48,027 bases of DNA from a virus: the IMG/VR virus record IMGVR_UViG_3300027860_000014. One strand, 5' to 3'. The position numbers and the translations under genes were made by a program. Every line of letters begins with the position of its first letter. The stretch's first letter is position 1. The notes below the pieces were generated by a model. That model did not search any database, was not told where the DNA came from, and saw only the letters and a list, made by a program, of their open reading frames with translations. Shown one piece after another: positions 1-11,476 of this stretch.

Positions 1-127
1 GCTGTCTGGATGAATAGGTATGTGAGACAGAATAACCTTATTACCCTCTTTGTCTTTCTGTACAACGCAAGACCTTATGTCATCAAAGAATGGGAGATAG
101 TCCTCGATTTTAAAGATGTCATGATTA
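1..127. repeat. 127-bp end overlap, identical to 47901-48027 (circular or terminally redundant assembly)
   Basis: Bases 1-127 (gctgtctggatgaataggtatgtgagac...gatgtcatgatta) recur exactly as the last 127 bases of the window. Confidence 0.95.
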
Positions 128-378
128 CCCTTAACAAGCACCAGACGCCCATTAAATCGCCCTAGAAGGTGCTTGAAGGGTCGGCGCATACAAACATCCC
201 CGAGCATGTAAACGCGGTCCTCGGGGCTTACAAGGGCATTGTGGTTAGCTATCAGAGCCTCATCATGCTCTTCGAGAGATTTAAAGGGCCTTAGTGGGGT
301 TCCGTCTTCTCGCTTGAAGTTGAGGATATTTGCGTGACCGAGATGATGGTCAGCACAAACCCAAGTTCTACCACTCAC
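1..378 (-). CDS. Metallophosphoesterase (calcineurin-like), N-terminal 126 codons. The gene continues across the junction into 47748-47900
   Basis: GTG start at 378 overlaps the TGA of the upstream ORF (GTGA). Product MSGRTWVCADHHLGHANILNF..YMLGDV..VKGNHD. 378+153 nt = 531 nt in frame once the ends are joined. Confidence 0.7.
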   Translation of the reverse strand, partial: MSGRTWVCADHHLGHANILNFKREDGTPLRPFKSLEEHDEALIANHNALVSPEDRVYMLGDVCMRRPFKHLLGRFNGRLVLVKGNHDIFKIEDYLPFFDDIRSCVVQKDKEGNKVILSHIPIHPDS

Positions 379-587
379 AGTGTGTGCCTTTTTCTGTACT
401 CTGTGATGGCCCTCTTACCTTTTTCAGTCGGCTTACCGAATTCACCATAACCTGAATTACGACAAAACTCGTCAGTAACTGTCAGTGCTGCACCCAAGCT
501 GGTCCAGTACTCCTCATCACCTAGAAGGAACTTAATATCCCCTTCTGTAAGGCTGGTATTATCGCTCTCAATCTCAAAGTTTACCAT
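375..587 (-). CDS. Hypothetical protein (70 aa)
   Basis: ORF coupled to its neighbours by short overlaps; no recognisable motif. Confidence 0.5.
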   Translation of the reverse strand: MVNFEIESDNTSLTEGDIKFLLGDEEYWTSLGAALTVTDEFCRNSGYGEFGKPTEKGKRAITEYRKRHTL

Positions 588-1087
588 TCTTCTCTCCTAA
601 TAGAAGTCCCCTCGGGAAGGGATCTATTCCAGATTTTGTCATGATCCGACAGAAGAAATCCCTCATAATAGCTTATGTCAATAATGTGCAAAGACATGTC
701 TTGTGGATGTGGATTGTCTTTGTTGTTGTCCCACTTGTACGGTTCATCGTCCAGAATGACATAATCCTCCACGTCTGGGTGGTCTTTCAGCCATTTAGCC
801 ACTCTGGTGTAACGCCAATGAATTGAGTCGTCACATGTGTAGTCCTCATGAAAATGCTCAGCCTTAATTCCCTGAGATATACAATGAGACAAAACAAATT
901 CAGGCCTATGAATTCTAATCCATGAGCTATGAATGGCGATCTTCCAGCCCTGAGCCTTACACAAATTATTGAGCATTCCAACCGCTATGGGGTCGAATTT
1001 AGTCATGATGGGCGTCTGACCAGTCAGCCAAAGAGCCTTATAAGGGATCATGGGCCCGTCAATATCGAGAAAGATAATCTTAGTCAT
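581..1087 (-). CDS. HAD-superfamily-like phosphatase/hydrolase
   Basis: N-terminal MTKIIFLDIDGPMIP (DxDG motif I of HAD hydrolases). 7-8 nt overlaps with both neighbours. Confidence 0.5.
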   Translation of the reverse strand: MTKIIFLDIDGPMIPYKALWLTGQTPIMTKFDPIAVGMLNNLCKAQGWKIAIHSSWIRIHRPEFVLSHCISQGIKAEHFHEDYTCDDSIHWRYTRVAKWLKDHPDVEDYVILDDEPYKWDNNKDNPHPQDMSLHIIDISYYEGFLLSDHDKIWNRSLPEGTSIRREEW

Positions 1088-1721
1088 CTAGAGTTGCCTT
1101 CAACACTTCAGGTATAACAGTTTTAAGTTCGTTCAAAATTTCATTGGCCACGGCACGGTGTTCCAACTGAGTACTTGGCTGAGTCCGGATTGAGATGTAG
1201 TGAATCCAGTCTCTTATAGTCCCTTGCATGTACATCTTAGTGGGCGTGAGGCCCTCAGGAAGTAACTTTCGGGCCACCTCTTTTGCGATCCCCGCTTCCA
1301 AGGCCATCGAGTATTGATGGTAACCGATCTTCCAGACTTCTCTCTGGGCGAAGTCCCAATGCTCTTTTAATCCGTCCCAGAATTCATTGTCATCTAATTC
1401 TATTGAATTTTGTCTATTATTAGGGTCTTGTAATCGCGGGGCACCGAAGACAGGCCTTTCTGTAACCTTACTGTAACGTTGGCTAAACTCCTGAAAATGA
1501 AAAGACCTGTGTCGGATAATTTGATGGGCTATGTCTCGTGTTGTTTTAATCTCCACACAGGCACAAACCATCTCAAAAGGTGACCAATGCTTATTTTTAA
1601 ATAGATAGTTGATGAGCTTCTTAGAGTCGTCATCGAGCGACGCTTTCGGATTGGACACACGGGCTAGATAAGCTATATGTTTCTCCGCGTCCGGTGTGAT
1701 CCAGACGAGTTTAGCCGTCAT
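1080..1721 (-). CDS. thyX: FAD-dependent thymidylate synthase ThyX
   Basis: ThyX signature IIRHRSFHFQEFSQRYS (RHRxxSxxxxSxR). Start chosen at MTAKLVWITPDAE (ATG 1721); the track ORF extends to 1817. Confidence 0.9.
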   Translation of the reverse strand: MTAKLVWITPDAEKHIAYLARVSNPKASLDDDSKKLINYLFKNKHWSPFEMVCACVEIKTTRDIAHQIIRHRSFHFQEFSQRYSKVTERPVFGAPRLQDPNNRQNSIELDDNEFWDGLKEHWDFAQREVWKIGYHQYSMALEAGIAKEVARKLLPEGLTPTKMYMQGTIRDWIHYISIRTQPSTQLEHRAVANEILNELKTVIPEVLKATLDD

Positions 1722-1864
1722 AGTCGGGGTCCAACAGAATGTCCTCATCGCCTTTAAGGGGCGGATAACCGGCAATACAGTCGAATATGACTTCCTGACA
1801 CTCCGCACACGGATCAATCAAGCTCACCGTGTCGGAGTCCTTATCACAAATTGCACACCGCAAA

Positions 1865-2218
1865 TTACTGGTCCTCTACCAAATTACGATCCGTCCACTC
1901 TTTAACGAACTTGCGCTGAAGTGGTGGCAGCGTAAGGCAGATGTTTTGAAGTCTGATACGAATAACGTCTAGATGACGCTCAGGATCATTAAATTGATCA
2001 CATATAGTGTTACAGCGTTTGATCAACTCATTCTGAATGGCCTCGGGAAGTTCTCCGTTGACCAGAACTTCGGGTTCAAAATTAGACTTATGTTTGTCCA
2101 CAATGAACCATTCTCGCCCATTGCGTTGCTGGACTCTAAATCCGTACTTGGCGATAAGTCTATGTTCTAAGTCCCAAGGGATCTCACCCCTGAACTTTAG
2201 ACGAGCTTTTACAGGCAT
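1865..2218 (-). CDS. Hypothetical protein (117 aa)
   Basis: ORF overlapping the ATP-grasp gene end by 10 nt; no motif recognised. Confidence 0.5.
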   Translation of the reverse strand: MPVKARLKFRGEIPWDLEHRLIAKYGFRVQQRNGREWFIVDKHKSNFEPEVLVNGELPEAIQNELIKRCNTICDQFNDPERHLDVIRIRLQNICLTLPPLQRKFVKEWTDRNLVEDQ

Positions 2219-2958
2219 TGTCTGAACGCCTTTGTGTAGCTTTCCACGGTCTGCCCCTCAAGACCAGGGGCCGTGTTTACCTCGAGGACGTAGAAGTTCT
2301 CCTCTTTATCTTCAATAATGTCCACGGCACCGAAATCCAGGCTAAGGGCCGCAATGGCATCGAGTGCCAGATCAGAACGATCATCATTAGGCTGAACACT
2401 ATTACGAGCAAATATAAAACCATTCGCATGAGATCTAACTTTCCAGTCTGTAATGATTTTATTTGGATCTCGGATCTTCTTCTGAGTGTCAATAACTTCA
2501 GAGCCTGCCACGTGAACACGATACTCATTCACCTTGAACACGTATTCGGTGTAGAGTGGGGCGTCTGGGACGATCTCATTTTTGGGCACTATTACTATAC
2601 CATTCCCCTCACTTCCAGTCAACACATTTCTAACAACAATAGTCTTGCCCATATTTGCCCAGGTTTGGGCCATGTCTTTACTTGTGGTCCAACGAACTGT
2701 TGGTACCTCAGTTTTATCGAACCGATCAAAACTCTTCAACTTGTCTCTGGCGATGGCAACCGATGCGGGAATATTTAGTACCAGTGGGTGTGGGAGTTCG
2801 TCCAAGTACGTCCCCCAGTTAATGATGAAATCTTGTGGTCTAACTCTATGAAATCGGTTAGGCCGGAGTCGAAGAAACCCATCTTGAGCCGCTAGTTGTT
2901 TAGCACCCTCGGAGGGACGATTGCCGGTGTACACCCAAATTCTTCTAGAATTCCGCAT
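2209..2958 (-). CDS. ATP-grasp (RimK-like) ligase
   Basis: TGSEGNGIVIV, EYRVHV, FGAVDII..FYVLEVNTAPGL, typical of ATP-grasp C-terminal lobes. Confidence 0.75.
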   Translation of the reverse strand: MRNSRRIWVYTGNRPSEGAKQLAAQDGFLRLRPNRFHRVRPQDFIINWGTYLDELPHPLVLNIPASVAIARDKLKSFDRFDKTEVPTVRWTTSKDMAQTWANMGKTIVVRNVLTGSEGNGIVIVPKNEIVPDAPLYTEYVFKVNEYRVHVAGSEVIDTQKKIRDPNKIITDWKVRSHANGFIFARNSVQPNDDRSDLALDAIAALSLDFGAVDIIEDKEENFYVLEVNTAPGLEGQTVESYTKAFRQCL

Positions 2959-3916
2959 CTACATCGTCCACTATGGGAGGAGGGGGAGGGACTTGTGCCT
3001 GAACAGCGTTTAAATTCCACTGTATATTATTAGGGTGCATTATAGGCTTCAGCTTCTTAGGCTTCCAATCAGAGCAGTAGGCAAAATCTTGGGCCAGCCT
3101 CATCCCGTCTCGAAGCATTCCCTGAGCATTCGGAACACCTGCGTATTTGTAGTAGTAATACCCTAGATGATACCTCATAAAGTCTAGAGGGCCATTATGG
3201 CTGAACTTAGAAATTATCTCACGAGGGTTTTCATAAAGCTTTGCAGAGTTTTTAAGAGCTTGAATTACACTGATCCATGATATTATTCTGTCATAATCAA
3301 TTGTACACTCTAGGGACCTAAACTCAACGGTCCCAAACTTCAGAATACTAGCAAAATTAACCGAACTGTAGCGATTATGGGGATTGATATTGACGATTGA
3401 TCCGGTGGTGGCGATTGAGTTGGAAAGTTCCTTAATCTGACCCTCGGCGTCGCGAGCCCGCAAACAGAAATTATTTCCGATACGGGTCTGGCCATTCTGG
3501 CTCACGAACAGTTCGTCAAACACGATACAGAGCGTGATAAAATTGACAAAAGTCCGAACTGTGTCCTTAAGGAAATTAATATGAACGTGAATAGACGTTC
3601 TGTAACTCGGATAAACCTCAACCTCAGGGTTTTGAAGATGATCAAATAACCTCTGAAGCGCTATTCCGGTGTCTTGCATATTAAGAGGGCGACGGAATAC
3701 GTACTCAATAGAAGATGAGCCCGGCTTATTAGCCCTAAGTGAATTATCAATATGAGTATTCCAATAAAACATGAGATCTTCGCTCTTTTTGACTACATTC
3801 TTGCCCTCTAGCTCGATCTCAACCCCGTACATATCTCCGTCAATAACATCCCCATAACCGTACGGATCCCCGATAATATTCTCTATTCTTTGATCCATCT
3901 CAACTTGTTTAGGCAT
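2945..3916 (-). CDS. Putative amidoligase (Amidoligase_2-like)
   Basis: YGVEIELEG, SIHVHINF and TVEFRSLE motifs recalled from the putative amidoligase family. Not a database search. Confidence 0.6.
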   Translation of the reverse strand: MPKQVEMDQRIENIIGDPYGYGDVIDGDMYGVEIELEGKNVVKKSEDLMFYWNTHIDNSLRANKPGSSSIEYVFRRPLNMQDTGIALQRLFDHLQNPEVEVYPSYRTSIHVHINFLKDTVRTFVNFITLCIVFDELFVSQNGQTRIGNNFCLRARDAEGQIKELSNSIATTGSIVNINPHNRYSSVNFASILKFGTVEFRSLECTIDYDRIISWISVIQALKNSAKLYENPREIISKFSHNGPLDFMRYHLGYYYYKYAGVPNAQGMLRDGMRLAQDFAYCSDWKPKKLKPIMHPNNIQWNLNAVQAQVPPPPPIVDDVDAEF

Positions 3917-4508
3917 TCTGTGCTTCTTTCAGAGATTCAAGGATGTACTCCCACTCAGGGAGTAGCTTCACACCTCGACCATAATTAGTCGTGTGACCAA
4001 CTTTATTACCCTTGTACTCAATAATGTAATCTTCATGAAGTGGGTCAAAAGTTGCAGCAAAGTTTTTATGAAAGGCCATGATTTTAGCCTCTTTGTCATC
4101 TAAAGCTTTTAGAGCATGCATGAATGTGGGGTACTTATTCTCAAGCATATTGGCAACTATCGGACTGTGCTTGAAGTCCACAGAGCTAAATTCTAGACTA
4201 CTGGAAACCCTGCCCAGTTGATCCTGCTTTAAGCCCTGTTTGTACTGCTTAAAAGGCATTCGATAAAACCAAGTTGCAGCGGTCAGACGGTTCACATACC
4301 CTATATTATAGTCTGAGCAATTGAACTCCGGCTCATCAATCCCGCCCGTAACCGTCTTATTATCCCTCATACTACTCGCCGTGAACAGGAAAGTGTTCTC
4401 AGCCACCTCAGAGATTGTCTTTACCGTGATGGCTTTACCCTTGTAAAGACAATAAGTTCCAACTAATTTACTAGATGCGTCTTCTAAGTTATCGTAGTTC
4501 AGCTTCAT
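3909..4508 (-). CDS. Hypothetical protein (199 aa) embedded in the ligase operon
   Basis: ORF with an 8-nt and a 1-nt overlap to the flanking ligase genes. Confidence 0.6.
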   Translation of the reverse strand: MKLNYDNLEDASSKLVGTYCLYKGKAITVKTISEVAENTFLFTASSMRDNKTVTGGIDEPEFNCSDYNIGYVNRLTAATWFYRMPFKQYKQGLKQDQLGRVSSSLEFSSVDFKHSPIVANMLENKYPTFMHALKALDDKEAKIMAFHKNFAATFDPLHEDYIIEYKGNKVGHTTNYGRGVKLLPEWEYILESLKEAQNA

Positions 4509-5335
4509 TAAGCCACCTGCTCCTCTGGGACAGGCTCAACATTCGGTAGAATTGGATATTTATTGAACCAATCATTTATCCCATTGTCGATTATCTGTTG
4601 TGCTAGCATACCCCAATTATCCTCAGCCCACTCTTCGTAATCAAGACCAAGCCGAACACCCATAACGGTCTGATTGTATACCCAACGGATCAAAGGCTCG
4701 GAGGTTAGCCATTTGTTAGATAAAACCCTGTATTCCATTCCGTACGGCTTAGGCCTGAAAGCCCCCGCCTTTCCGTACAACTCTCGTCGAGTATTGTCGC
4801 TGTCCCACTTCAGCGAAAAGATACCTAGAAAATAATCCAATTGCCTTGCGACCTTACCACAAAGCCTGAAGTGATCTCTGTCGTAAACGTCCATGTCAGA
4901 CGTCCAGCCAACATGAATATGCCCCGCAGCGGTCCTCAAGGGCCTATTACCGGGGTCGGGACGAGGATTAACCTCAAGGTTCCATGCACAGAAATCCGGG
5001 TCACAACCCAGTTCCTTAGACACTCCGGGAATTCCCCAGTCAAAGTACGTCCGTTCATAGACTGCAGTTGGCTCAGCTACCACATTATAGCCGGGGACAA
5101 AATCTGCAATCTGGGCCTTAACCGCTTGAATATGATGGACAAATTCCTCAACGGTATTGGCGGGATCAATATTGAACTCAAGGGCCGTTCCGTCGATTTG
5201 GACAGCTCCGAAAGGAACCTTGTGAGGCTCGTGCTTGGTTCCGGGAATAAGACCATGGGCCGACACGAACTCGCCGGTTTCCTTGTTCTTCATAAAAAGC
5301 TCTGGATCGGCTCCGACAAGGATCTTAGAACTCAT
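4508..5335 (-). CDS. phiEco32-type COOH-NH2 ligase-like protein
   Basis: N-terminal ILVGADPELF...GTALEFNI pattern recalled from the phage COOH-NH2 ligase type 2 family. ATGA overlap with the upstream gene. Confidence 0.5.
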   Translation of the reverse strand: MSSKILVGADPELFMKNKETGEFVSAHGLIPGTKHEPHKVPFGAVQIDGTALEFNIDPANTVEEFVHHIQAVKAQIADFVPGYNVVAEPTAVYERTYFDWGIPGVSKELGCDPDFCAWNLEVNPRPDPGNRPLRTAAGHIHVGWTSDMDVYDRDHFRLCGKVARQLDYFLGIFSLKWDSDNTRRELYGKAGAFRPKPYGMEYRVLSNKWLTSEPLIRWVYNQTVMGVRLGLDYEEWAEDNWGMLAQQIIDNGINDWFNKYPILPNVEPVPEEQVA

Positions 5336-6456
5336 AGTGCGTACTCCATCATTTCCCTAATTTCTGTGTCATTGTAGCAATCTTCGCACAAATACAATTT
5401 ACGGTTGTCCATGTCGTCCTTGAGACAATGGATAAAATCTCCCCAGTGAGATGTGGTGTCCTCGCAGAACACACACCCTGAAGACACAAGCTTGCTGAAT
5501 TGCACCTTATTGATCACATGCCCGTAATGATCTTTGTAAGGGGGCCTGAACTTCTTGGTGTCGATGATCATCGTAGGCTTATATTTAGCTTTAGGTTTAG
5601 GTTCGATGACCGCCACATCTGTTTTAGATGATTTATACTGCGGATCGTACCCATAGCTATAGCCAGGGAGGTAGTAATCTCCTAGGTCGTCGTTGTTCTT
5701 GCCGCCATAACCGTAGTTGACGGCCCGAGTAAAAGAACTGCCCTCAACTTTCTCCACCAAGGGCTTCTCAAACTTGTCCCCTAAGCTCTTAGGCAGCTTC
5801 CACGTGTAATGGACATTCTCCTCAATCTGATAGATAGTCTTTTCTAAGATCTTCACCCTATTGCGCTTTAGAACCCACTCAAGCATCTCAGACTCAGACG
5901 CCCAGAATAGGGTTTCTCTGTCTTCGCTGTAAGTGTAATATAAAGGGCGCTTATCATTCCTGAGTAGGTTGATCGTGTCCGAAGACTTCTCAAACCACGT
6001 CAAGGCCCATGCGCCTGAAATAGATTGTATTGTGGGCTTGAGACCATTCTTGTTGATGGCATTAAAAATGGCCTCACTGTCAGTCCCAAACATTCTCCAG
6101 TCGGGAAGCTCTCTGAGAGTCCAATGATCGAGAGTTCCGTTGTGGGCACCAACTATATTTTCGAACTTGAATGGATGGCTATTCTTCTCGTTCTTGTCCC
6201 CGACAGTGGCGTACCGATTATGGCCAATTATAGCTTTGATACCCACTTCGAGCATTAAGTCCTTGTACTCTTTTGTACTAATAAATTGAGGACTGGCGAG
6301 AGGAGCTTTAGCCAGCATAACCTTACTGTTCTCTCGTTTGATGAGAGCCGTACCGGTTGAATGAGGACCCCTTAGGACGTCCACGAACAATAGCTCTGTG
6401 AACACGTCCTTCATGTTTACAGTGCAGTTACCGGCTATCCCAACTAAGCCGCACAT
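5332..6456 (-). CDS. Class II (Ntn) glutamine amidotransferase-like protein with a C-terminal Cys-rich ribbon
   Basis: Starts MCGLVGIAG (Cys2 nucleophile) at ATG 6456. GHNRYAT, HPF, HNG motifs. C-terminal CVFC..HC..CEDC. Confidence 0.8.
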   Translation of the reverse strand: MCGLVGIAGNCTVNMKDVFTELLFVDVLRGPHSTGTALIKRENSKVMLAKAPLASPQFISTKEYKDLMLEVGIKAIIGHNRYATVGDKNEKNSHPFKFENIVGAHNGTLDHWTLRELPDWRMFGTDSEAIFNAINKNGLKPTIQSISGAWALTWFEKSSDTINLLRNDKRPLYYTYSEDRETLFWASESEMLEWVLKRNRVKILEKTIYQIEENVHYTWKLPKSLGDKFEKPLVEKVEGSSFTRAVNYGYGGKNNDDLGDYYLPGYSYGYDPQYKSSKTDVAVIEPKPKAKYKPTMIIDTKKFRPPYKDHYGHVINKVQFSKLVSSGCVFCEDTTSHWGDFIHCLKDDMDNRKLYLCEDCYNDTEIREMMEYAL

Positions 6457-7115
6457 GATTGACCAATCTCCGAGTAACACTTCTGCATAAGCTCGTACGT
6501 GTAACTAGCGAACCTTGAGTTAGGAACGTACTCTGGATGGCCCTGAATACACAGAGAGTGCGTCTTGGGATACCAGACAATCTCCACGTCCTCACCATTC
6601 CTGAGGTTCTGTACGGGCTTGAATTGCTGAATACCGAAATATCCCGAGTCCTTGTAGGAGGACATAGAGCTAATTCCGATAACAATTCCGTCCTTGACAT
6701 TCGGTCTCATCATCTGGTGATGGGTGGACGTAACTTCCAAGATCTCGCCGGTCGGTAGGTCGATCATCTTGTGTGATCTAAAATGGCCATCCACATCCTG
6801 ATAGAGCTTTCCGCCATTCAGACAATTCAATAGTTGAGAACCACGACAAATCCCGAGTAATAGTTTTCCCGGTAAGCCCCGGAAATCAATAAACATTTCC
6901 ATCTCAGTCATGTCGCGAGAACTTGGCTGAAATGGGATAGAGCGATTGACCGGAGTTTCCATATAAATTGACGTACCAATGTCCTCTCCGCCATTCCAGA
7001 TAATGACGTCAGCCTCTGAAGGTTTCTGAACCTCCTCCATTCCGTATGAGTTCTTGAGTAGCCAGGAGCAACCGCCAGGCCCGGTCTCGTCTCTAAAGCT
7101 GTAGAATGTTTTCAT
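6444..7115 (-). CDS. Class I glutamine amidotransferase / peptidase C26 (gamma-glutamyl hydrolase-like)
   Basis: LGICRGSQLLN nucleophile elbow and IQGHPE His-Glu pair. Confidence 0.75.
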   Translation of the reverse strand: MKTFYSFRDETGPGGCSWLLKNSYGMEEVQKPSEADVIIWNGGEDIGTSIYMETPVNRSIPFQPSSRDMTEMEMFIDFRGLPGKLLLGICRGSQLLNCLNGGKLYQDVDGHFRSHKMIDLPTGEILEVTSTHHQMMRPNVKDGIVIGISSMSSYKDSGYFGIQQFKPVQNLRNGEDVEIVWYPKTHSLCIQGHPEYVPNSRFASYTYELMQKCYSEIGQSCAA

Positions 7116-7843
7116 TATTCATGCTCTTTCCAGAAGTTGCGGAGAGTGTTACCCTTGAGATCCATAAGATCTTGAGACTCACCCCATATAGAGTTACAGG
7201 GAGCAGATGCACCAGGGCTCTCATAATAAGACACAGAAAGGTCACTGGGCCCTGTCTTAGTGAGACGATCCAATTTGGCGGATATGTAAAACGGCCAATG
7301 ACCGAAACTTGTCCAGTCGAATGGGGCTAGAACCTCCACGTCAAGTAGTTTAGATATTGGTGTACTAGCTGGTAGTATGCACTTGCAAGATGCGAATGCT
7401 TGACGACTGGTCAATCCTGATTTTCGAAGTTTGTCCCACAAGATCAGATTGGTTCTAAATTCAATTGGTATGCGACTGGCAATACAGAAGTTATATAGGG
7501 CATTAGCCGGTACTTTGTCTAGGTCTGTTACCTCTATGTAGTAATGACCATCCTTGGATTTAAGATTTATACAAGATGACCAATTGCTGTACAAAGGCAC
7601 AAGAAGCTCCTGAAAGAACTCTAAGTCAAGATCCTTTTTTACAGGGTACGCAGTTATCAGACCTTGCCAGTAATTACGCCTAGTGAGATTGAAAGCCATT
7701 TTATAATGACAGGCCTCTAAAGTTTGACTAATGGCAAGTCCGTCCTCGTTGATCAGGGCGTAAGATGAGGGATTAGCCTTATTTAATTTAAGGTAAGATT
7801 TGATAATCTCACTGACCGCCTCATCCCGCGATTGCAGTTGCAT
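7115..7843 (-). CDS. Hypothetical protein (242 aa), ligase operon
   Basis: ORF with a TAATG junction to the downstream GATase gene. Confidence 0.55.
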   Translation of the reverse strand: MQLQSRDEAVSEIIKSYLKLNKANPSSYALINEDGLAISQTLEACHYKMAFNLTRRNYWQGLITAYPVKKDLDLEFFQELLVPLYSNWSSCINLKSKDGHYYIEVTDLDKVPANALYNFCIASRIPIEFRTNLILWDKLRKSGLTSRQAFASCKCILPASTPISKLLDVEVLAPFDWTSFGHWPFYISAKLDRLTKTGPSDLSVSYYESPGASAPCNSIWGESQDLMDLKGNTLRNFWKEHE

Positions 7844-8204
7844 TAAACGTCTCTGATTTGTCCCTCACAAAGAACCCTTGGCGGGCTCCTCTGGGCTTTG
7901 CCGTGGCGAATTGGACAAAATTGGCTTTCTTGACCGCATTCATGATTTTCTTAGAGTCCATCTGAGATTTATTTAGAGTCAGGAAGGTGAGACTCGGCCT
8001 GATAATCTCCTGACTGTACACCTGATGATCGGGGATGTAATTATCACAGATATTTTGTATCTGCTCAACTAGTTCGTCCTCAGTCAGGTTACCAACATTC
8101 TTGAAACCTGAGATAATGCTCGCACCACAGCACAATGGCCATAGTTGAGTCCTCATTTCAGCGGGATAATTTTTGGAATTGTCTCCGAATTTCTTGGTAG
8201 TCAT
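7821..8204 (-). CDS. Hypothetical protein (127 aa), first gene of the ligase operon
   Basis: ORF about 130 nt downstream of the promoter at 8335-8362. Confidence 0.55.
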   Translation of the reverse strand: MTTKKFGDNSKNYPAEMRTQLWPLCCGASIISGFKNVGNLTEDELVEQIQNICDNYIPDHQVYSQEIIRPSLTFLTLNKSQMDSKKIMNAVKKANFVQFATAKPRGARQGFFVRDKSETFNATAIAG

Positions 8205-8305
8205 CTATTGCATTTCCGGGATTTGGGCCCATGTTCATCTGGGCGGGTTCATAAACTGGATAATAATACAGTTGTATGAAGGGAGATGGGTTGGTGGCAT
8301 CTCTA

Positions 8306-8362
8306 TAAGGTGTATTTACCAACCGCTTAAAGATATTTTATACTATTTTACGGAATTGTCAA
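8306..8362 (-). repeat. Promoter-plus-leader cassette, copy B (inverted copy of 44093-44149)
   Basis: 37 consecutive identical nt (reverse complement of 8313-8349 equals 44106-44142), plus shared TTGACA and acctta. Confidence 0.9.
8335..8362 (-). promoter_or_regulatory. sigma70-like promoter TTGACA-N16-TAAAAT
   Basis: Minus strand reads cTTGACAattccgtaaaatagtaTAAAATatc. The -35 overlaps the TGA of the upstream ORF. Confidence 0.6.
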
Positions 8363-8661
8363 GACCCTGAGCATTTCCAATTCTCCCAAGGGTGTTGTGG
8401 ATTATAAAGATAGACTGAAAATCCATTGACATTAAATGTGTGTAGGCCCTCGCCTTTGGGGACCTCACCAGCAAAATTATGTGACCAAGCTTCGCTAACT
8501 GATCTAAATACACCAGCAGCCACTAAAAGAGCCCCGTAGTCAACATCGGGCTTGAAACGTAGAAGTCTGTCAGTCGCGGGGAACACTATTTCAGGGTCCA
8601 CCCCGACGACACATAAATTCTTTTCCTTTGCTTGTTTGTTAGACAAAGGACTGAAGTGCAA
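8359..8661 (-). CDS. Hypothetical protein (up to 100 aa; start uncertain, no ATG)
   Basis: ORF opens with TTG at 8661 and overlaps the 29-aa ORF upstream; an internal GTG start is possible. Confidence 0.4.
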   Translation of the reverse strand: MHFSPLSNKQAKEKNLCVVGVDPEIVFPATDRLLRFKPDVDYGALLVAAGVFRSVSEAWSHNFAGEVPKGEGLHTFNVNGFSVYLYNPQHPWENWKCSGS

Positions 8662-8728
8662 AAAAGACCAGGGCTAAGCAAAGAGCCAAGCCAAGGCCAT
8701 AGGTGATGTCTTCGTGTTTAGACCACAT
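8639..8728 (-). CDS. Small membrane peptide (29 aa), below the ORF-track cutoff
   Basis: AAGGAAAActgaaATG ribosome-binding site. Product MWSKHEDITYGLGLALCLALVFFALQSFV has one hydrophobic helix. Confidence 0.45.
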   Translation of the reverse strand: MWSKHEDITYGLGLALCLALVFFALQSFV

Positions 8729-8729
8729 T

Positions 8730-9053
8730 TCAGTTTTCCTTTATTAGGTCTTTGAGATAGTACACTCCGGTATTGTCGTCATTGTGTGTACTTACTACCC
8801 AAGCTCTAGTTTTATAGATACAGAGTACCTTGTACGTATTGATAGTGGATCTGTAAGGACGAACCGTATCCCCCACCTTAAGAGGTTCAGGAGCTTTTAC
8901 TACGTTCAGTATCGCAGAGTCGTCTATCATGAGAATATCATGAGATCCAACCACTTTAAAAACAGTTTTAGCCAGCCCATCTGTATCACCAACTAATTCT
9001 CTACACAGTTCTTTAACCGTAAGTGTGATCTTATCACCGGTGTTCAGTTTCAT
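8730..9053 (-). CDS. Hypothetical two-domain protein, paralogue family member 3
   Basis: Shares M.L..GDK.TLT and P.(E)P..GD.V....TYKV..I......AWV with 9202-9528. Confidence 0.6.
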   Translation of the reverse strand: MKLNTGDKITLTVKELCRELVGDTDGLAKTVFKVVGSHDILMIDDSAILNVVKAPEPLKVGDTVRPYRSTINTYKVLCIYKTRAWVVSTHNDDNTGVYYLKDLIKEN

Positions 9054-9205
9054 TTGGCTAACCTCAAGTCATAGTGAAAGAATACATAAGTCATGTCGTC
9101 TTCGGCATCTTCTAAATGCACCCAAACGCGTGTTTTGTATGTACAAATCACTACAAATTTAGTGTGAGGGTTGAAGCTCTGATAAACAATGTCCCCAGGT
9201 TTCAT
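9050..9205 (-). CDS. Single-domain paralogue (51 aa), below the ORF-track cutoff
   Basis: MKPGDIVYQSFNPHTKFVVICTYKTRVWVH... matches the C-terminal half of both flanking genes. ATGA overlaps at both ends. Confidence 0.6.
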   Translation of the reverse strand: MKPGDIVYQSFNPHTKFVVICTYKTRVWVHLEDAEDDMTYVFFHYDLRLAK

Positions 9206-9528
9206 TGCTCTACCCATCTTAGGTGTTGAAGACCGATTATGTGAGTACTTTTTTTACATACTAGCTCATGTACCCAAGCATTTCCGTTAAATATCGCAAT
9301 TACTTTGTAAGTGGGATCTGATAACTTTTTATACTCCACGACATCTCCAGGCTCGATAGGTTTTTGTGGAACATCTGTCAGTGTTTTAGTATTAACCCAG
9401 ACGGTCGGGCGATGGAAGTTAACGCTAATAGACTCTTTAAAGCAAATACAAGCCCACCCATCAGGGCTATTTTCTTGCTCTATGCTCTCAATTGTTAGAG
9501 TGACCTTATCACCGGGTGCCAGTCTCAT
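9202..9528 (-). CDS. Hypothetical two-domain protein, paralogue family member 1
   Basis: See 8730-9053. Confidence 0.6.
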   Translation of the reverse strand: MRLAPGDKVTLTIESIEQENSPDGWACICFKESISVNFHRPTVWVNTKTLTDVPQKPIEPGDVVEYKKLSDPTYKVIAIFNGNAWVHELVCKKSTHIIGLQHLRWVEQ

Positions 9529-10018
9529 GATCCGTTATCCAATCTGGTTTGGGGCGAAATGACCATGAGTGAATGTGTCGCTTCGCTAGGTTGTAGTAGT
9601 TTTTGTATGACTTCACACAATCGGGAAGACCCCAATCGTTCATAACAATGTACTCCGGGCTCATGGCGATTGACGGGGGCCAGAAGGGGACCGATTTGTC
9701 AATTCTAGTCGGGGGTTTGCTCAGAGGTTTGCCCAGATCAACCCATGATCCGTGCTCCCTACCGTACCTGTATTTGTATTCCGCAGAGGTTTGTTGAAAA
9801 AGCTCATAAAGCCATAGATAATTCTCAAGTGACCATCGGGCCCAACGGGCACTGGGATGGCCTACATGAGTGACTTTGTAACCCACCTGATTATTGTCAA
9901 GGACAGAGTGGGCCGTGGACAAAAGCTGAGCGTACTCGACGGGCATCTTAACAACGTGGCGATCAACATGCCACTGACTGGCCCGTCTTGGGTCCAAATC
10001 TAGTGCGAATATGTTCAT
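9509..10018 (-). CDS. Conserved hypothetical protein (169 aa)
   Basis: Start chosen at MNIFALDLDPRRASQWHVDRHVVKMPVEYAQLLSTAH (ATG 10018). No function can be assigned from the motif. Confidence 0.5.
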   Translation of the reverse strand: MNIFALDLDPRRASQWHVDRHVVKMPVEYAQLLSTAHSVLDNNQVGYKVTHVGHPSARWARWSLENYLWLYELFQQTSAEYKYRYGREHGSWVDLGKPLSKPPTRIDKSVPFWPPSIAMSPEYIVMNDWGLPDCVKSYKNYYNLAKRHIHSWSFRPKPDWITDHETGTR

Positions 10019-10113
10019 AATGTGGTGCCCCCGCCCAGAATGCCCCGTAAAGGCCGTTTTAAAGCCCGTACGTGGCAATCATGGGTTTTCTGGTATTTGG
10101 GTAGCCTAGAGCC

Positions 10114-10377
10114 TCAAGCGGCCTCCACGCCCTCCATTTTGGCCTTTAAGCGATTGGCCACTTCCGAGACGTACTCCTCCACGTCTTCAGGTGTGGCCAT
10201 GTCAGTCTTTACGCTGTAGCCATTGTGACTTGCCCACCAAATATGCTTACCAAGCCATGCGGCGGTACCGAAATGATGCAAGTCAATAATATTACGATTG
10301 ATAAACTCCCCACCAGGGCCAGTTGTCTCGACCGTCATGTACAGTTTGGGCTTTGTGTTCTCAGTGTTAGCAGTCAT
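10114..10377 (-). CDS. Hypothetical protein (87 aa)
   Basis: ORF only. Confidence 0.5.
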   Translation of the reverse strand: MTANTENTKPKLYMTVETTGPGGEFINRNIIDLHHFGTAAWLGKHIWWASHNGYSVKTDMATPEDVEEYVSEVANRLKAKMEGVEAA

Positions 10378-10460
10378 TTTCTACGCCCCTTGCGTGAAAA
10401 GTTGTTGGAAATGGTCAACGACAATCCACTAGCACTTTAAAGGCTAGTTTAAATAGCGTC

Positions 10461-10486
10461 GATGTCGCCCCGCGACGCGGTGCAAC
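10461..10486 (+). repeat. 26-nt GC-rich repeat, copy 1 (GATGTCGCCCCGCGACGCGGTGCAAC)
   Basis: Contains GTCGC-CCC-GCGAC and CCGCG-A-CGCGG inverted repeats. Flanked by the 7-bp inverted repeat tagcgtc/gacgcta (10454-10460 and 10497-10503). Confidence 0.9.
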
Positions 10487-10508
10487 TAAAGTGTTAGACG
10501 CTAATAAA

Positions 10509-10796
10509 TTAGGCTTGTGATGTCGCCCCGCGACGCGGTTCAACTTGTGCCAAAGTTTGTATCAAGTCCTGCTCATCTGAGCACTTGACATATGGGTAAA
10601 CGCCTTTGATCGCCTGATTGAGATACTTCCCCACACTCTCGGCGAACATGAGACCGGAGTAAACTTCCATGTCAACGTTAGTGTAGACGTAAAGTCCTCC
10701 ATTTATGAACCTTACGGCCAGAGATCTAGCTTTGTCGTCATAGAAAACTTGCTTGACGTTAGACGAGTCCACGTCTTCCCAAGGAATATTAGTCAT
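10509..10796 (-). CDS. KTSC-domain protein
   Basis: DSSNVKQVFYDDKARSLAVRFINGGLYVYTNVDMEVYSGLMFAESVGKYLNQAIK fits the KTSC pattern. Start at MTNIPWE with an AAGAGG ribosome-binding site. Confidence 0.6.
   Translation of the reverse strand: MTNIPWEDVDSSNVKQVFYDDKARSLAVRFINGGLYVYTNVDMEVYSGLMFAESVGKYLNQAIKGVYPYVKCSDEQDLIQTLAQVEPRRGATSQA
10519..10544 (+). repeat. 26-nt GC-rich repeat, copy 2 (one mismatch, G to T)
   Basis: GATGTCGCCCCGCGACGCGGTTCAAC, exactly 32 nt after copy 1. Lies inside the last codons of ORF 10509-10796. Confidence 0.9.
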
Positions 10797-10861
10797 TTTA
10801 GTAACCTCTTTCCACACCCTAAGAAGTCTTTCGACTGCACACAAAAGGCTTGTGTACAGGT

Positions 10862-10949
10862 GACCCTATGGTCATGCGATAAATCCGCTCGAACATGGAC
10901 GAGTGGGGGAGTCATTCACATGGAGCGATATGGGGCACGCCATAGGGTC
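10862..10949 (-). other. Long stem-loop (10-bp closing stem GACCCTATGG/CCATAGGGTC, nested inner stems)
   Basis: Perfect 10-bp inverted repeat with a 68-nt interior containing further pairings (TCGCTC/GAGCGG). Sits just after the stop of 10954-11151. Confidence 0.5.
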
Positions 10950-10953
10950 GCCT

Positions 10954-11151
10954 TTACACAAACTTACCGGAGTCTTCCTTATTTTTAATTCTCATTTCTG
11001 CCGATATCACACAATGACGGATTGCGTCTAGTAGGTATCTTTCCCCACCCTCATAACGACCCGTCGTGTAGGCTCTTTCGGTTTCTATGAGCCTGGATAT
11101 TTGATCGAAAGTGAGTACCTTTTCGCGATCTATAAGATCTTTCACCCCCAT
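10954..11151 (-). CDS. Hypothetical protein (65 aa)
   Basis: ORF whose ATG overlaps the stop of the 32-aa ORF upstream. Confidence 0.5.
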   Translation of the reverse strand: MGVKDLIDREKVLTFDQISRLIETERAYTTGRYEGGERYLLDAIRHCVISAEMRIKNKEDSGKFV

Positions 11152-11240: not shown

Positions 11241-11372
11241 TTGATTAACCTCCCATCCAGAACCAATAGACAAACGCCCCTAGAATTATCAGAAGCGAGT
11301 AAACACCCGTTATGATCGTTAGCTCTTTTAGGAATCTGATCATTAGGCCACAACCCCAAGATTTGCGTTTGG

Positions 11373-11422: not shown

Positions 11423-11476
11423 ATAAATGCAAATCGAGCAGTTTAATGACTTGCTCAGGTCATATTGCATTAATAA

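What the first reader, a model, noticed from the sequence alone, without database searches (positions are those of the whole stretch)
2209..8362. Eight-gene amidoligase / ATP-grasp / glutamine-amidotransferase operon of unknown product
Eight minus-strand genes (8204 down to 2209) lie downstream of a sigma70-like promoter at 8335-8362 (minus strand) and are joined by 1-23 nt overlaps. In order they encode:
- two unknown proteins (127 aa and 242 aa);
- a class I GATase / peptidase C26-like protein (GICRGSQLLN, IQGHPE);
- an Ntn class II GATase that begins MCGLVGIAG;
- a phiEco32-type COOH-NH2 ligase-like protein;
- an unknown 199-aa protein;
- an Amidoligase_2-like protein (YGVEIELEG, SIHVHINF);
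- a RimK-like ATP-grasp (VLEVNTAPGL).

That makes three distinct ATP-dependent amide-bond-forming enzymes plus two amide-transfer or hydrolysis enzymes. I see no recognisable carrier, NRPS or substrate-defining partner.

Phage ligase clusters of this kind were predicted by comparative genomics (Iyer, Abhiman, Burroughs and Aravind, 2009) to make a peptide-like metabolite or a peptide tag. To my knowledge no product, target or phenotype has been established.

The operon lies directly upstream of thyX and a HAD/metallophosphatase pair. A nucleotide- or DNA-linked amide modification is therefore an additional possibility, by inference only.
Basis: partly seen in the sequence, partly recalled or inferred. 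Interest (0 to 1): 0.85.

Follow-up and report, generated by a model that had tools for sequence, protein, structure and literature searches.

The report
Phage amidoligase / gamma-glutamyl enzyme operon
This is an intact copy of a gene module for amide-bond-forming enzymes that many unrelated phages carry; it was recognised by comparative genomics in 2009, but its product is still unknown, so this window is a new example of an old puzzle, not a new kind of system.

Summary
Eight overlapping minus-strand genes (8204 to 2209) follow the best sigma70-like site in the first 13 kb. Profile searches confirm a peptidase-C26/class-I GATase, a Cys1 Ntn GATase, a phiEco32-type COOH-NH2 ligase, an Amidoligase_2 and a RimK-like ATP-grasp. 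The residues expected to be catalytic are conserved in all five.

The module is not new. 319 of 50,697 deposited phage records carry the COOH-NH2 ligase. The order g242-C26-Ntn-ligase-g199-Amidoligase_2-ATP-grasp recurs in Zobellviridae and in a T4-like jumbo Vibrio phage. A reshuffled version occurs in Kuravirus, Bruynoghevirus, Moazamivirus, Lahexavirus and a crAss-like phage.

New here:
- The 127-aa protein has a short GNAT-like fold. It is clade-specific and very conserved.
- The 242-aa protein belongs to a fast-evolving family with invariant Cys-His...His.
- The 199-aa protein is a phage-only beta-barrel protein, probably also shared with the phiEco32-type module.

I found no biochemical characterisation in the literature I could search.

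Most likely mechanism (inferred): an ATP-driven cycle that makes and trims gamma-glutamyl-type amide bonds on an unidentified amine acceptor. The ThyX adjacency reflects position inside the replication module. It is not evidence for DNA modification.

The parts
8335..8362 (-). Sigma70-like promoter candidate, TTGACA-16-TAAAAT, about 130-160 nt upstream of the first gene.
   Evidence: It is the best match (11 of 12) in window 1-13000. A perfect consensus site lies upstream of the orthologue in L013, and weaker sites in three other relatives. Function was not tested.
7821..8204 (-). g127: a small GNAT-like-fold protein, first gene of the unit. Its membership in the pathway is unproven.
   Evidence: - No Pfam or PHROG hit.
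- At least 163 homologue clusters at 53-69% identity, all uncultured. No hit in 50,697 phage records.
- AF2 model with pLDDT 89.8.
- Foldseek against PDB gives GNAT acetyltransferases (AAC(6')-Ib, 3bln, the NAT10 GNAT domain) with probability 0.99-1.0, E about 0.01 and TMq 0.4-0.48.
- Invariant residues include R18, Q20, W22-P23-L24-C25-C26-G27, S32, G33, K35, D59, Q61 and E66. The C-terminus is not conserved.
- It lies directly upstream of the module in 8 of 8 sampled related contigs.
7115..7843 (-). g242: member of a fast-evolving family of unknown fold with invariant Cys45-His46, Arg124, Glu128, His182 and Trp220. It is a conserved component of the PA11/Zobellviridae-type module.
   Evidence: - 154 representative proteins at E<=1e-3 in the exhaustive search. 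Alignment A3.
- No Pfam or PDB sequence match.
- The A3 profile finds the gene directly upstream of the C26 gene in CVT22 (6e-21), Klyazma, KZY1, T2S1 and Vibrio phage V07, and in 9 MAG-binned phage contigs.
6444..7115 (-). Peptidase C26 / class-I GATase-like protein, a gamma-glutamyl hydrolase type.
   Evidence: - Pfam PF07722, 4e-12. phrog_7218, 5e-32.
- PDB sequence relatives: Lin1909 (3fij), 'probable glutamine amidotransferase' chains 7d4r/7d53/7d50, and more weakly gamma-glutamyl peptidase 1.
- The nucleophile Cys90 in GICRG is invariant. The His and Glu of IQGHPE are read directly from the sequence.
5332..6456 (-). Stand-alone class-II (Ntn) glutamine amidotransferase with a C-terminal four-Cys zinc-ribbon-like motif. 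It has no synthase or SIS domain.
   Evidence: - GATase_6, 4.7e-18.
- PDB: 1te5 ('conserved hypothetical protein') and the GlmS N-terminal domain. NCBIfam: weak EgtC match, 1e-5.
- Invariant: Cys (residue 2 after the ATG at 6456), R89, N114-G115 and D134. C336 and C339 are invariant and C365 and C368 are conserved in all but one of 13 orthologues (ORF numbering).
- No SIS domain in any of 8 orthologues.
4508..5335 (-). phiEco32-type COOH-NH2 ligase, a carboxylate-amine ligase of the glutamine-synthetase / gamma-glutamylcysteine-ligase type.
   Evidence: - PF14395, 5e-8. phrog_3815, 3e-75.
- 319 phage records carry a homologue.
- Invariant D10, E12, E53, H139, H141, E201 and R203.
- No solved structure by sequence.
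3909..4508 (-). g199: conserved phage-only beta-barrel protein between the two GS-like ligases. Likely a non-catalytic partner (acceptor, scaffold or specificity subunit).
   Evidence: - phrog_11055, 5e-22. 23 homologues.
- AF2 model with pLDDT 91.4, mostly beta.
- Foldseek against PDB gives only weak hits to small-barrel proteins (eIF5A, EF-P, HEX-1), E>0.01, TM about 0.2.
- BFVD gives only uncharacterised phage orthologues, e.g. CW02 gp8.
- hhalign to LUZ24 gp17 / phi32_85 / 7-11 gp104: probability 89%, E 2.4e-6.
- Near-universal G70, R83, G92 and G171 across 53 sequences.
2945..3916 (-). Amidoligase_2, the second GS-like carboxylate-amine ligase.
   Evidence: - PF12224, 6e-12. phrog_7469, 4e-58.
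- Invariant E33, E35, E37, R61, H110, H112, E198 and R200 in 13 orthologues.
- No solved structure by sequence.
2209..2958 (-). RimK-like ATP-grasp ligase.
   Evidence: - PF08443, 6e-7, above gathering score. phrog_2599, 3e-71.
- NCBIfam best matches: RimK family 1.9e-14 and MptN 8e-13, both below their curated cut-offs.
- PDB: Ddl and RimK at about 1e-5.
- Invariant K73, R110, E145, K161, D213, E226 and N228.
1865..2218 (-). g117: unknown protein overlapping the ATP-grasp gene by 10 nt. It is a positional neighbour conserved within the clade; its membership is uncertain.
   Evidence: A 115-146-aa gene follows the ATP-grasp gene in every related contig whose locus extends past that gene. No Pfam, NCBIfam or PADLOC hit. 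It is not a GGCT.

Best explanation
**Identity (high confidence).** This is a complete, intact copy of the phage 'amidoligase module' described by comparative genomics (Iyer, Abhiman, Burroughs and Aravind 2009). It has the PA11/Zobellviridae-type gene order. It sits at the head of the nucleotide-metabolism and replication module of a complete 47.9-kb genome of an uncultured podophage.

**Mechanism (inferred, moderate confidence).** The module is a self-contained, ATP-driven pathway that makes and then trims gamma-glutamyl-type amide bonds on an amine-bearing acceptor. The product is a small Glu/Gln-containing, peptide-like conjugate, most likely a metabolite and not a ribosomal protein tag.

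Steps:
1. The two glutamine-synthetase-fold ligases (COOH-NH2 ligase and Amidoligase_2) each activate a carboxylate as an acyl-phosphate and couple it to an amine. In every characterised member of this fold known to me the carboxylate is a glutamate gamma-carboxylate.
2. The RimK-like ATP-grasp adds an amino acid, probably L-glutamate, to a carboxylate.
3. The Cys1 Ntn amidotransferase either delivers ammonia from glutamine to one ligase (amidation of a carboxylate) or cleaves a gamma-glutamyl amide, as EgtC does.
4. The peptidase-C26 enzyme hydrolyses a gamma-glutamyl-amine bond, for deprotection or recycling.
5. The 199-aa beta-barrel protein is a non-catalytic partner that holds or selects the acceptor.
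6. In this clade a GNAT-like protein may cap a free amine, and the Cys-His protein g242 may add a further hydrolase or transferase step.

**Shown:** gene content, intact active-site residues, and co-inheritance and block transfer of the genes.

**Inferred:** every chemical step, the order of the steps and the acceptor.
For: **Family assignments** and their scores are.

**Active-site residues** are invariant in 12-14 orthologues spanning six or more phage lineages.

**Functional linkage:**
- The four core enzymes are adjacent in Zobellviridae, Kuravirus, Bruynoghevirus, Moazamivirus, Lahexavirus, a crAss-like phage and a T4-like jumbo phage, in several different gene orders.
- They are also adjacent in 19 of 23 MAG-binned phage contigs that have at least 11 kb of context.
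- The seven-gene block g242-C26-Ntn-ligase-g199-Amidoligase_2-ATP-grasp occurs in the same order in Zobellviridae and in Straboviridae phage V07. That implies transfer as a unit.

**Gamma-glutamyl theme:**
- The C26 enzyme matches gamma-glutamyl peptidase 1 and 'probable glutamine amidotransferase' chains (7d4r and relatives) that I recall as gamma-glutamyl-polyamine hydrolases.
- The Ntn enzyme matches EgtC weakly and a stand-alone class-II GATase structure, 1te5.
- The ATP-grasp is closest to the RimK and MptN alpha-L-glutamate ligases.
- A gamma-glutamyl cyclotransferase gene accompanies the module in phiEco32, LUZ24, CW02, RIO-1, phi14:2, LAh_9 and 11 MAG-binned contigs.

**Precedent.** Linked ATP-grasp, COOH-NH2 ligase and GNAT genes are interpreted as successive peptide ligations with acyl capping in PMC4431377.

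**Fitness relevance.** Two independently evolved lines of Pseudomonas phage FJK both acquired missense changes in genes annotated as an amidoligase and a 'GlmS-like' aminotransferase (PMC11450229).

**Substrate generality.** Hosts range from Gammaproteobacteria to Bacteroidota, which suggests a universal substrate.
Against: - No product, acceptor or phenotype is known. All the chemistry is extrapolated from distant family members.
- The ATP-grasp scores far below the RimK-family cut-off (53.7 against 143.4 bits).
- The two GS-like ligases have no solved or characterised close relative.
- GS-fold ligases also include the protein-tagging enzyme PafA (from memory).
- The conserved non-enzymatic-looking g199 and the zinc ribbon on the Ntn enzyme fit a macromolecular acceptor as well as a small one.
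- The window lacks the cyclotransferase found in many relatives.
- The role of g127 rests only on adjacency within one syntenic clade.
Confidence: 0.4

Rival explanations
1. Protein or peptide tagging. The ligases attach glutamate or a short Glu/Gln peptide to a lysine or a C-terminus of a host or phage protein, possibly g199 itself. The Ntn, C26 and cyclotransferase enzymes act as processing or erasing enzymes. This would be analogous to PafA/Dop with Pup, or to RimK with ribosomal protein S6.
For: - There are two paralogous GS-fold enzymes, as in PafA/Dop (family knowledge).
- The ATP-grasp is RimK-like.
- g199 is a conserved, non-enzymatic-looking beta-barrel protein encoded between the two ligases, in the PA11 type and probably also in the phiEco32 type.
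- In the sequences inspected, a Lys follows the conserved aromatic residue in a (Y/W/H)-K-(G/N/D/T) motif between two predicted strands.
- The Ntn enzyme carries a conserved four-Cys ribbon that could bind a macromolecule.
Against: - There is no small Pup-like or ubiquitin-like ORF in the window.
- The C-terminus of g127 is not conserved.
- The resemblance of g199 to EF-P/eIF5A is not significant (E>0.01, TM about 0.2).
- To my knowledge, characterised C26, EgtC-like and GGCT enzymes act on small molecules.
Confidence: 0.22
2. Cell-envelope modification. The module amidates or extends peptidoglycan stem peptides or another envelope polymer, for example to block superinfection. Later papers attribute this idea to Iyer et al. 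2009.
For: - The ATP-grasp also matches D-Ala-D-Ala ligases (5e-6 in PDB; PF07478, 1.6e-4).
- A glutamine amidotransferase paired with a ligase recalls lipid II amidation by MurT/GatD (family knowledge).
- The idea is repeated in PMC10580990 and PMC11318856.
Against: - None of the eight proteins matched a membrane, secretion or Mur-ligase family in the searches run.
- The module is co-located with replication genes, not with lysis or structural genes.
- RimK-family matches are stronger than Ddl matches.
- Strictly lytic podophages gain little from superinfection exclusion through slow wall remodelling (inference).
Confidence: 0.1
3. Nucleic-acid-linked modification. The module builds an amino-acid or peptide adduct on a nucleotide, on DNA or on RNA/tRNA, protecting the genome from restriction or retargeting translation.
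For: - The module always lies inside the nucleotide-metabolism and replication block, and next to ThyX in this clade.
- Amidoligase and amidotransferase domains co-occur with thymidine-hypermodification genes in viromes (PMC8989533).
- The weak structural neighbours of g199 are nucleic-acid- or ribosome-binding small barrels.
- The Ntn enzyme carries a four-Cys ribbon-like motif.
Against: - None of the 29 window ORFs scanned against Pfam matched a 5-hmdU kinase, an aGPT-Pplase, a dUMP/dCMP hydroxymethylase, a TGT/DpdA or a DNA glycosylase-fold transferase.
- ThyX makes ordinary dTMP.
- ThyX is not adjacent to the module in PA11, Klyazma, CVT22, LUZ24 or phiEco32.
- The BASEL authors point to a dCTP deaminase and a nucleotidyltransferase, not to this module.
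Confidence: 0.1
4. The genes are unrelated auxiliary metabolic genes that merely sit side by side in an early region. There is no common pathway.
For: - Within the window's own clade the whole early region is syntenic, so adjacency there is uninformative.
- This applies to g127 and g117 in particular.
Against: The core genes stay together through several independent rearrangements and across at least seven unrelated phage lineages, including transfer of the block into a T4-like jumbo phage.
Confidence: 0.03

Closest known systems
Phage amidoligase module of phiEco32 / LUZ24 / PaP3 / PA11 (Iyer, Abhiman, Burroughs and Aravind 2009, Mol BioSyst 5:1636; the paper itself was not readable here, so its content is known to me from memory and from citing papers)
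   Same: - The same four core enzyme families are present: COOH-NH2 ligase, Amidoligase_2, RimK-like ATP-grasp and Ntn GATase.
- The ~200-aa partner protein is also present.
- The position, just upstream of the primase-helicase and replication genes, is the same.
- Gene order is identical to PA11, Klyazma, CVT22, CW02 and Vibrio phage V07.
   Different: - Protein identity to the best cultured relatives is only 30-54%.
- A clade-specific GNAT-like gene sits in front.
- No GGCT gene is present.
- All genes overlap, with no inserted small ORFs or homing endonucleases.
- ThyX, HAD and a metallophosphatase follow the module.
Gamma-glutamylation pathways for amines (PuuA/PuuD, PauA/PauD-SpuA) and gamma-glutamyl protecting-group chemistry (EgtA/EgtC in ergothioneine; BtrJ/BtrG in butirosin)
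   Same: A GS-fold or ATP-grasp gamma-glutamyl ligase is combined with a C26, Ntn or GGCT enzyme that removes the gamma-glutamyl group. The C26 and Ntn proteins here give weak sequence matches to gamma-glutamyl peptidase 1, 7d4r-type chains and EgtC.
   Different: - No oxidase, dehydrogenase, methyltransferase, PLP enzyme or carrier protein that defines those pathways is present.
- The matches are far below equivalog cut-offs.
- The acceptor amine is unknown.
Pupylation (PafA ligase, Dop deamidase/depupylase, Pup)
   Same: Two paralogous GS-fold carboxylate-amine ligase-like enzymes are encoded together. A gamma-glutamyl isopeptide is the likely bond type.
   Different: There is no Pup-like small disordered protein with a C-terminal GGQ/GGE, and no proteasome or Mpa. 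The extra ATP-grasp and two amidohydrolases have no counterpart in pupylation.
RimK / LysX / MptN / CofF alpha-L-glutamate ligases
   Same: The best profile matches of the ATP-grasp are to this group. The ATP-grasp residues K, E, D and E-x-N are conserved.
   Different: - It scores 53.7 bits against a 143.4-bit family cut-off.
- It is shorter (249 aa), with a reduced N-terminal domain.
- No S6, LysW, F420 or methanopterin context is present.

Membership tests
Phage amidoligase module (Iyer et al. 2009 type) | phiEco32-type COOH-NH2 ligase (PF14395) present with its conserved acidic, His-x-His and Glu-x-Arg motifs | tested here: met
   PF14395, 32.9 bits against a cut-off of 25. D10, E12, H139, H141, E201 and R203 are invariant.
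Phage amidoligase module (Iyer et al. 2009 type) | Second GS-like ligase (Amidoligase_2, PF12224) adjacent | tested here: met
   46.4 bits against a cut-off of 22. E33, E35, E37, H110, H112, E198 and R200 are invariant.
Phage amidoligase module (Iyer et al. 2009 type) | ATP-grasp ligase and class-II (Ntn) GATase in the same cluster | tested here: met
   Cys follows the initiator Met at 6456.
Phage amidoligase module (Iyer et al. 2009 type) | Genes co-occur as a cluster in unrelated phages | tested here: met
   The cluster is present in all 16 public phage or metagenome loci with enough context (all but the 4.2-kb L010), and in 19 of 23 MAG-binned phage contigs with at least 11 kb of context.
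Phage amidoligase module (Iyer et al. 2009 type) | Gamma-glutamyl cyclotransferase (AIG2/GGCT) gene associated (a frequent accessory gene) | tested here: not met
   No GGCT anywhere in the window by tblastn or by a profile built from six phage GGCTs. GGCT is also absent from PA11, Klyazma and CVT22, so it does not define the module.
RimK family alpha-L-glutamate ligase (TIGR00768) | Score above the curated family cut-off | tested here: not met
   53.7 bits against 143.4. The Pfam RimK domain does pass (29.6 against 21). The protein is therefore RimK-like, not a RimK-family member.
GlmS (glutamine-fructose-6-phosphate aminotransferase), the name used for this gene in many phage records | C-terminal SIS isomerase domains | tested here: not met
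   Only GATase domains are found in the window protein and in 8 orthologues of 420-846 aa. The GlmS name is an over-annotation.
Peptidase C26 / gamma-glutamyl hydrolase-type class-I GATase | Pfam score above gathering and a Cys-His-Glu triad | tested here: met
   46.8 bits against 20.5. Cys90 is invariant. The His and Glu of IQGHPE are seen in the sequence.
GNAT acyltransferases (for g127) | GNAT fold with an acyl-CoA pyrophosphate-binding loop | tested here: inconclusive
   Fold matches have probability 0.99-1.0 but E about 0.01 and TMq below 0.5, and the protein covers only about 60% of a GNAT domain. No Pfam hit. Conserved S32, G33 and K35 lie after the strand at 28-32, which I take (without a residue-level alignment) to be where the CoA loop would be. 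Binding was not tested.
Pupylation-like tagging system | Small tag protein with a conserved C-terminal Gly-Gly-Gln/Glu | tested here: not met
   There is no such ORF among the eight genes. The C-terminus of g127 is not conserved. g199 ends in a conserved helix.
Thymidine hypermodification clusters (Lee et al. 2018, 2021) | 5-hmdU DNA kinase, aGPT-Pplase and a dUMP hydroxymethylase or TET/JBP dioxygenase | tested here: not met
   None of these appeared among the 29 ORFs scanned against Pfam in the early, module and replication regions. The structural region was not scanned.

The most novel reading that the evidence does not exclude
The module is a nucleic-acid-directed hypermodification pathway. 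It would build a glutamyl or peptidyl adduct on DNA, or on a nucleotide or RNA. g199 (tandem small beta-barrels) and the zinc ribbon of the Ntn enzyme would serve as the nucleic-acid-binding parts. This would explain the unexplained restriction resistance of the Kuravirus group, which carries the sister version of the module.
Probability: 0.1. Interest if true: 0.85.

Novelty: new member of a known kind. Interest (0 to 1): 0.45.

Why it matters
The module is one of the most widespread known-unknown enzyme sets in phages. It occurs in 319 of 50,697 deposited phage genomes. Carriers include therapy-relevant Pseudomonas (LUZ24-like and PA11-like), E. coli (Kuravirus) and Klebsiella phages, crAss-like and T4-like phages, and many uncultured genomes.

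It costs the phage 5-6 kb of a 48-kb genome. It is kept intact and is transferred as a block. Yet I found no product reported in the 17 years since it was predicted.

Solving it would reveal either a new phage-made metabolite, a new protein or nucleic-acid modification, or a new counter-defence chemistry.

This window contributes three things:
- a very compact, insertion-free eight-gene version suitable for cloning;
- a fold assignment (GNAT-like) for a highly conserved extra gene;
- evidence that the 242-aa and 199-aa proteins are true module components.

Tried and rejected
- **Megablast** of the region against phage records gave no match. All relatives are at protein level only.
- **C26 and GGCT as mutually exclusive analogues.** This looked true in cultured phages, where only CW02 has both. 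It failed in MAG-binned contigs, where 11 loci carry both.
- **g242 as a homologue of the two ~300-400-aa proteins upstream of the ligase in LUZ24, phiEco32 and 7-11.** hhalign probability was 0.2%.
- **g117 as a divergent GGCT.** No hit.
- **g127 as a ubiquitin-like tag ending in Gly.** Its C-terminus is not conserved.
- **g199 as an EF-P/eIF5A-like protein.** Only weak Foldseek hits (E>0.01, TM about 0.2). BFVD returned only uncharacterised orthologues.
- **PADLOC defence models.** Nothing relevant.
- **PDB sequence searches** for the two GS-like ligases and the g242 profile gave no usable hit.
- **Repeated weak hits of the g242 C-terminus** to giant BED-zinc-finger proteins were judged spurious.
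- **A papain-like reading of g242** (Cys45...His182...Asn217-x-x-Trp220-Gly) is motif-spotting only.
- **A cellular pathway to borrow a function from.** All 45 genome-collection hits are phage-sized or short MAG contigs plus two ~1-kb scaffolds of one isolate assembly. None shows a chromosomal context.
- **Iyer et al. 2009** could not be opened.
- **Internal terminators and promoters** are not more frequent than chance.

Full report
**1. Observation**

- 8204-7821 (127 aa, g127)
- 7843-7115 (242 aa, g242)
- 7115-6444 (223 aa)
- 6480/6456-5332 (382 or 374 aa)
- 5335-4508 (275 aa)
- 4508-3909 (199 aa, g199)
- 3916-2945 (323 aa)
- 2958-2209 (249 aa)

Successive genes overlap by 23, 1, 13, 4, 1, 8 and 14 nt. 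The 13-nt figure assumes the Ntn enzyme starts at the ATG at 6456 (MCGLVG), which places the nucleophilic Cys at residue 2.

The site TTGACA-16-TAAAAT at 8362-8335 is the best sigma70-like match (11 of 12) in the first 13 kb. It lies in a 154-nt gap. The total count of such sites is not above the shuffled expectation, so the promoter is plausible, not shown. One related contig (L013) has a perfect consensus promoter before the orthologous first gene. Three other relatives have weaker sites. Terminator-like sites inside the cluster are no more frequent than chance.

**2. What the proteins are**

Pfam places five proteins above gathering score: RimK ATP-grasp, Amidoligase_2, COOH-NH2_lig, class-II GATase (GATase_6, _7 and _4) and Peptidase_C26. 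PHROGs agrees with much stronger E-values.

Alignments with 12-14 orthologues from six or more phage lineages show the expected catalytic residues to be invariant:
- COOH-NH2 ligase: D10, E12, H139, H141, E201, R203.
- Amidoligase_2: E33, E35, E37, H110, H112, E198, R200.
- ATP-grasp: K73, R110, E145, K161, D213, E226, N228.
- Ntn enzyme: Cys1 (mature numbering), R89, N114-G115, D134.
- C26 enzyme: the nucleophile Cys90. The His and Glu of IQGHPE are seen directly in the sequence.

The Ntn enzyme has no synthase or SIS domain. It carries a C-terminal four-Cys ribbon-like motif (C336, C339, C365, C368) that is conserved in both module types. The 'GlmS' name used in many phage records is therefore an over-annotation.

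By sequence, the closest solved structures are:
- for the C26 protein, Lin1909 (3fij), 'probable glutamine amidotransferase' chains (7d4r and relatives) that I recall as gamma-glutamyl-polyamine hydrolases, and more weakly gamma-glutamyl peptidase 1;
- for the Ntn enzyme, a stand-alone class-II GATase deposited as a 'conserved hypothetical protein' (1te5) and the GlmS N-terminal domain, plus a weak EgtC match in NCBIfam;
- for the ATP-grasp, Ddl and RimK. Its best NCBIfam models are the RimK family and MptN, both far below their cut-offs.

The two GS-like ligases have no solved relative detectable by sequence.

**3. The three 'unknown' proteins**

*g199.* It matches phrog_11055 and has 23 close homologues. 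AlphaFold gives a confident, mostly beta model (pLDDT 91.4). Its neighbours in PDB are only weak small-barrel proteins: eIF5A, EF-P and HEX-1, with E>0.01 and TM about 0.2. Its BFVD neighbours are uncharacterised phage orthologues such as CW02 gp8. Profile-profile comparison links it to the positionally equivalent LUZ24 gp17, phi32_85 and 7-11 gp104 (probability 89%, E 2.4e-6). It is therefore a core component of the PA11-type module and probably of the phiEco32 type as well. Across 53 sequences G70, R83, G92 and G171 are nearly universal. In the sequences inspected, a Lys follows the conserved aromatic residue in a (Y/W/H)-K-(G/N/D/T) motif that lies between two predicted strands.

*g242.* It has 154 representative relatives in the exhaustive search. 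Invariant residues are C45, H46, P112, R124, E128, H182 and W220. It has no Pfam or PDB sequence match. Its profile detects the gene immediately upstream of the C26 gene in CVT22, Klyazma, two oyster-virome Zobellviridae and Vibrio phage V07, and in nine MAG-binned contigs. It is unrelated to the two proteins upstream of the ligase in LUZ24 and phiEco32.

*g127.* It is the best-conserved protein of the region: at least 163 clusters at 53-69% identity. It has no homologue in any deposited phage record. Its model (pLDDT 89.8) matches GNAT acetyltransferase domains with probability 0.99-1.0, but with modest E (about 0.01) and TMq 0.4-0.48. It covers only about 60% of a GNAT domain. Its C-terminus is not conserved.

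**4. Context and distribution**

The window is a complete circular assembly. Its last 127 nt repeat its first 127 nt, and the exhaustive protein search shows a 48,027-bp contig of identical sequence.

The minus strand runs from early genes, through the promoter candidate and the eight genes, then through:
- a 117-aa gene;
- ThyX;
- HAD_SAK_2;
- a metallophosphatase that spans the junction;
- the primase-helicase and PolA;
- endonuclease I and an exonuclease;
- a MazG-like ORF;
- a class II RNR.

The phage has no close cultured relative. Its terminase is at most 53% identical to any deposited phage.

The COOH-NH2 ligase has homologues in 319 of 50,697 phage records. Local profile searches on 17 loci show two main layouts:
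- Type A: g242-C26-Ntn-ligase-g199-Amidoligase_2-ATP-grasp. It occurs in Zobellviridae (PA11, Klyazma, CVT22, CW02, KZY1, T2S1), in the window's clade (with g127 in front), and in the same order in the T4-like jumbo Vibrio phage V07.
- Type B: ligase-(~200 aa)-Amidoligase_2-Ntn-ATP-grasp-GGCT. It occurs in phiEco32, LUZ24 and LAh_9, and in 7-11 without a detected GGCT.

RIO-1 and the crAss-like phi14:2 show further permutations.

A scan of 185,579 species genomes returned 45 loci. Forty-three are MAG contigs, mostly of phage size (43-54 kb), and two are ~1-kb scaffolds of one isolate assembly. None shows a chromosomal context. In 19 of the 23 loci with enough context, all four core enzymes are adjacent. 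This is strong evidence for one functional unit of six or seven genes.

For g127 the evidence is weaker. It precedes the module in 8 of 8 sampled relatives. However, those genomes are syntenic throughout, and the block that moved into V07 lacks it.

**5. Mechanism**

Five of the enzyme families in or around the module converge on gamma-glutamyl-amine chemistry.
- Makers: the two GS-fold ligases. Characterised members (GS, GshA/YbdK, PuuA/PauA, PafA) all activate a glutamate gamma-carboxylate. That statement is family knowledge from memory.
- Breakers: C26 hydrolases, EgtC-like Ntn hydrolases and GGCT.
- A further ligase: the ATP-grasp is nearest to enzymes that add L-glutamate.

I therefore favour an ATP-driven cycle that builds and trims gamma-glutamyl-type amides on an unidentified amine, giving a small peptide-like conjugate. 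In this model glutamine is the nitrogen donor or a substrate, g199 is a non-catalytic partner, and the GNAT-like protein is an optional capping enzyme. This follows the interpretation of linked ATP-grasp, COOH-NH2 ligase and GNAT genes in PMC4431377.

Nothing beyond gene content, intact active sites and co-inheritance is shown. Confidence in this specific reading is about 0.4. Confidence that this is the known module is above 0.9.

Rivals:
- Protein tagging, about 0.22. g199 could be the acceptor.
- Envelope modification, about 0.1.
- Nucleic-acid modification, about 0.1.

The nucleic-acid reading gains some external support. Gordonclarkvirinae are unexpectedly resistant to restriction and have no known modification pathway (PMC11990801). 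Amidoligase and amidotransferase domains occur in thymidine-hypermodification clusters (PMC8989533). Against it, none of the defining hypermodification enzymes was found in the window, and ThyX adjacency is specific to this clade.

**6. Literature**

Full-text searches for amidoligase, COOH-NH2 ligase, the Pfam accessions, phiEco32 with ATP-grasp, and related terms found only genome descriptions that cite Iyer et al. 2009. The one functional hint is parallel missense evolution in an annotated amidoligase gene and an annotated GlmS-like aminotransferase gene, in two experimentally evolved lines of Pseudomonas phage FJK (PMC11450229). The library lacks most subscription journals. A characterisation published there cannot be excluded.

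**7. Verdict**

The finding is a new member of a known but biochemically unsolved phage module. It carries one clade-specific addition, a GNAT-like protein. It also allows a clearer list of true components: g242 and g199 belong to the module.

Interest is moderate. The open question is real and long-standing, but this window does not make it more testable than the cultured phages that already carry the module. Its one practical advantage is a compact, insertion-free operon for cloning.

Noticed in passing
window 1-127 and 47901-48027: The last 127 nt of the window are identical to the first 127 nt. The contig is therefore a circular assembly of a complete genome of about 47,900 bp.
   Followed up: yes
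window 1-414 (minus), continuing at 47751-47900: A calcineurin-like metallophosphatase gene spans the ends of the window (PF00149, 21.8 bits against a cut-off of 21.5).
   Followed up: yes
window 8730-9053, 9050-9217 and 9202-9528 (minus): Three adjacent small ORFs just upstream of the promoter look like tandem paralogues. They share a 'PGD-V ... YKV ... AWV' motif in the translations. No Pfam hit for the two that were scanned.
   Followed up: no
window 40501-40815 (minus): A 104-aa ORF matches PF18909, the N-terminal domain of dATP/dGTP diphosphohydrolases. From memory, that family is linked to 2-aminoadenine phage genomes. No PurZ-type match appeared among the 29 ORFs scanned against Pfam; the rest of the window was not searched for it.
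   Followed up: partly
window 10509-10844 (minus), and related contigs: A KTSC-domain protein is conserved about 1-3 kb upstream of the module in all seven related contigs for which Pfam annotation of the upstream region was returned.
   Followed up: no
window 7115-7843, residues about 190-235 of g242: The C-terminal stretch gives repeated weak matches to giant proteins made of BED zinc-finger arrays (P0269, P0277, P0293). This is probably compositional. Separately, the motif Cys45...His182...Asn217-x-x-Trp220-Gly resembles the layout of a papain-like thiol hydrolase. That was not tested.
   Followed up: partly
loci L018-L062 (genome contigs): Phage genomes carrying the module have been binned into MAGs of very different phyla, including Saccharibacteria and other Patescibacteria, Bacteroidota and Gammaproteobacteria. 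Many are 43-54 kb contigs. Host assignments drawn from such bins would be unreliable.
   Followed up: no
L003, L004, L005, L015, L017 (public phage records): [quoted passage not shown] None of the 8 tested proteins has a SIS domain, and their 200-600-aa C-terminal regions match no Pfam family.
   Followed up: yes
L005 (phage 7-11), L017 (LAh_9), and the 58-kb ENA contig: Genes for ribose-phosphate pyrophosphokinase and nicotinamide phosphoribosyltransferase (NAD salvage) lie within a few kb of the module in three unrelated phages. Whether this is more than shared early-region placement is unknown.
   Followed up: no
L013 4321-4349, upstream of the g127 homologue: A perfect TTGACA-16-TATAAT promoter starts 47 nt upstream of the start codon of the g127 orthologue.
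   Followed up: partly
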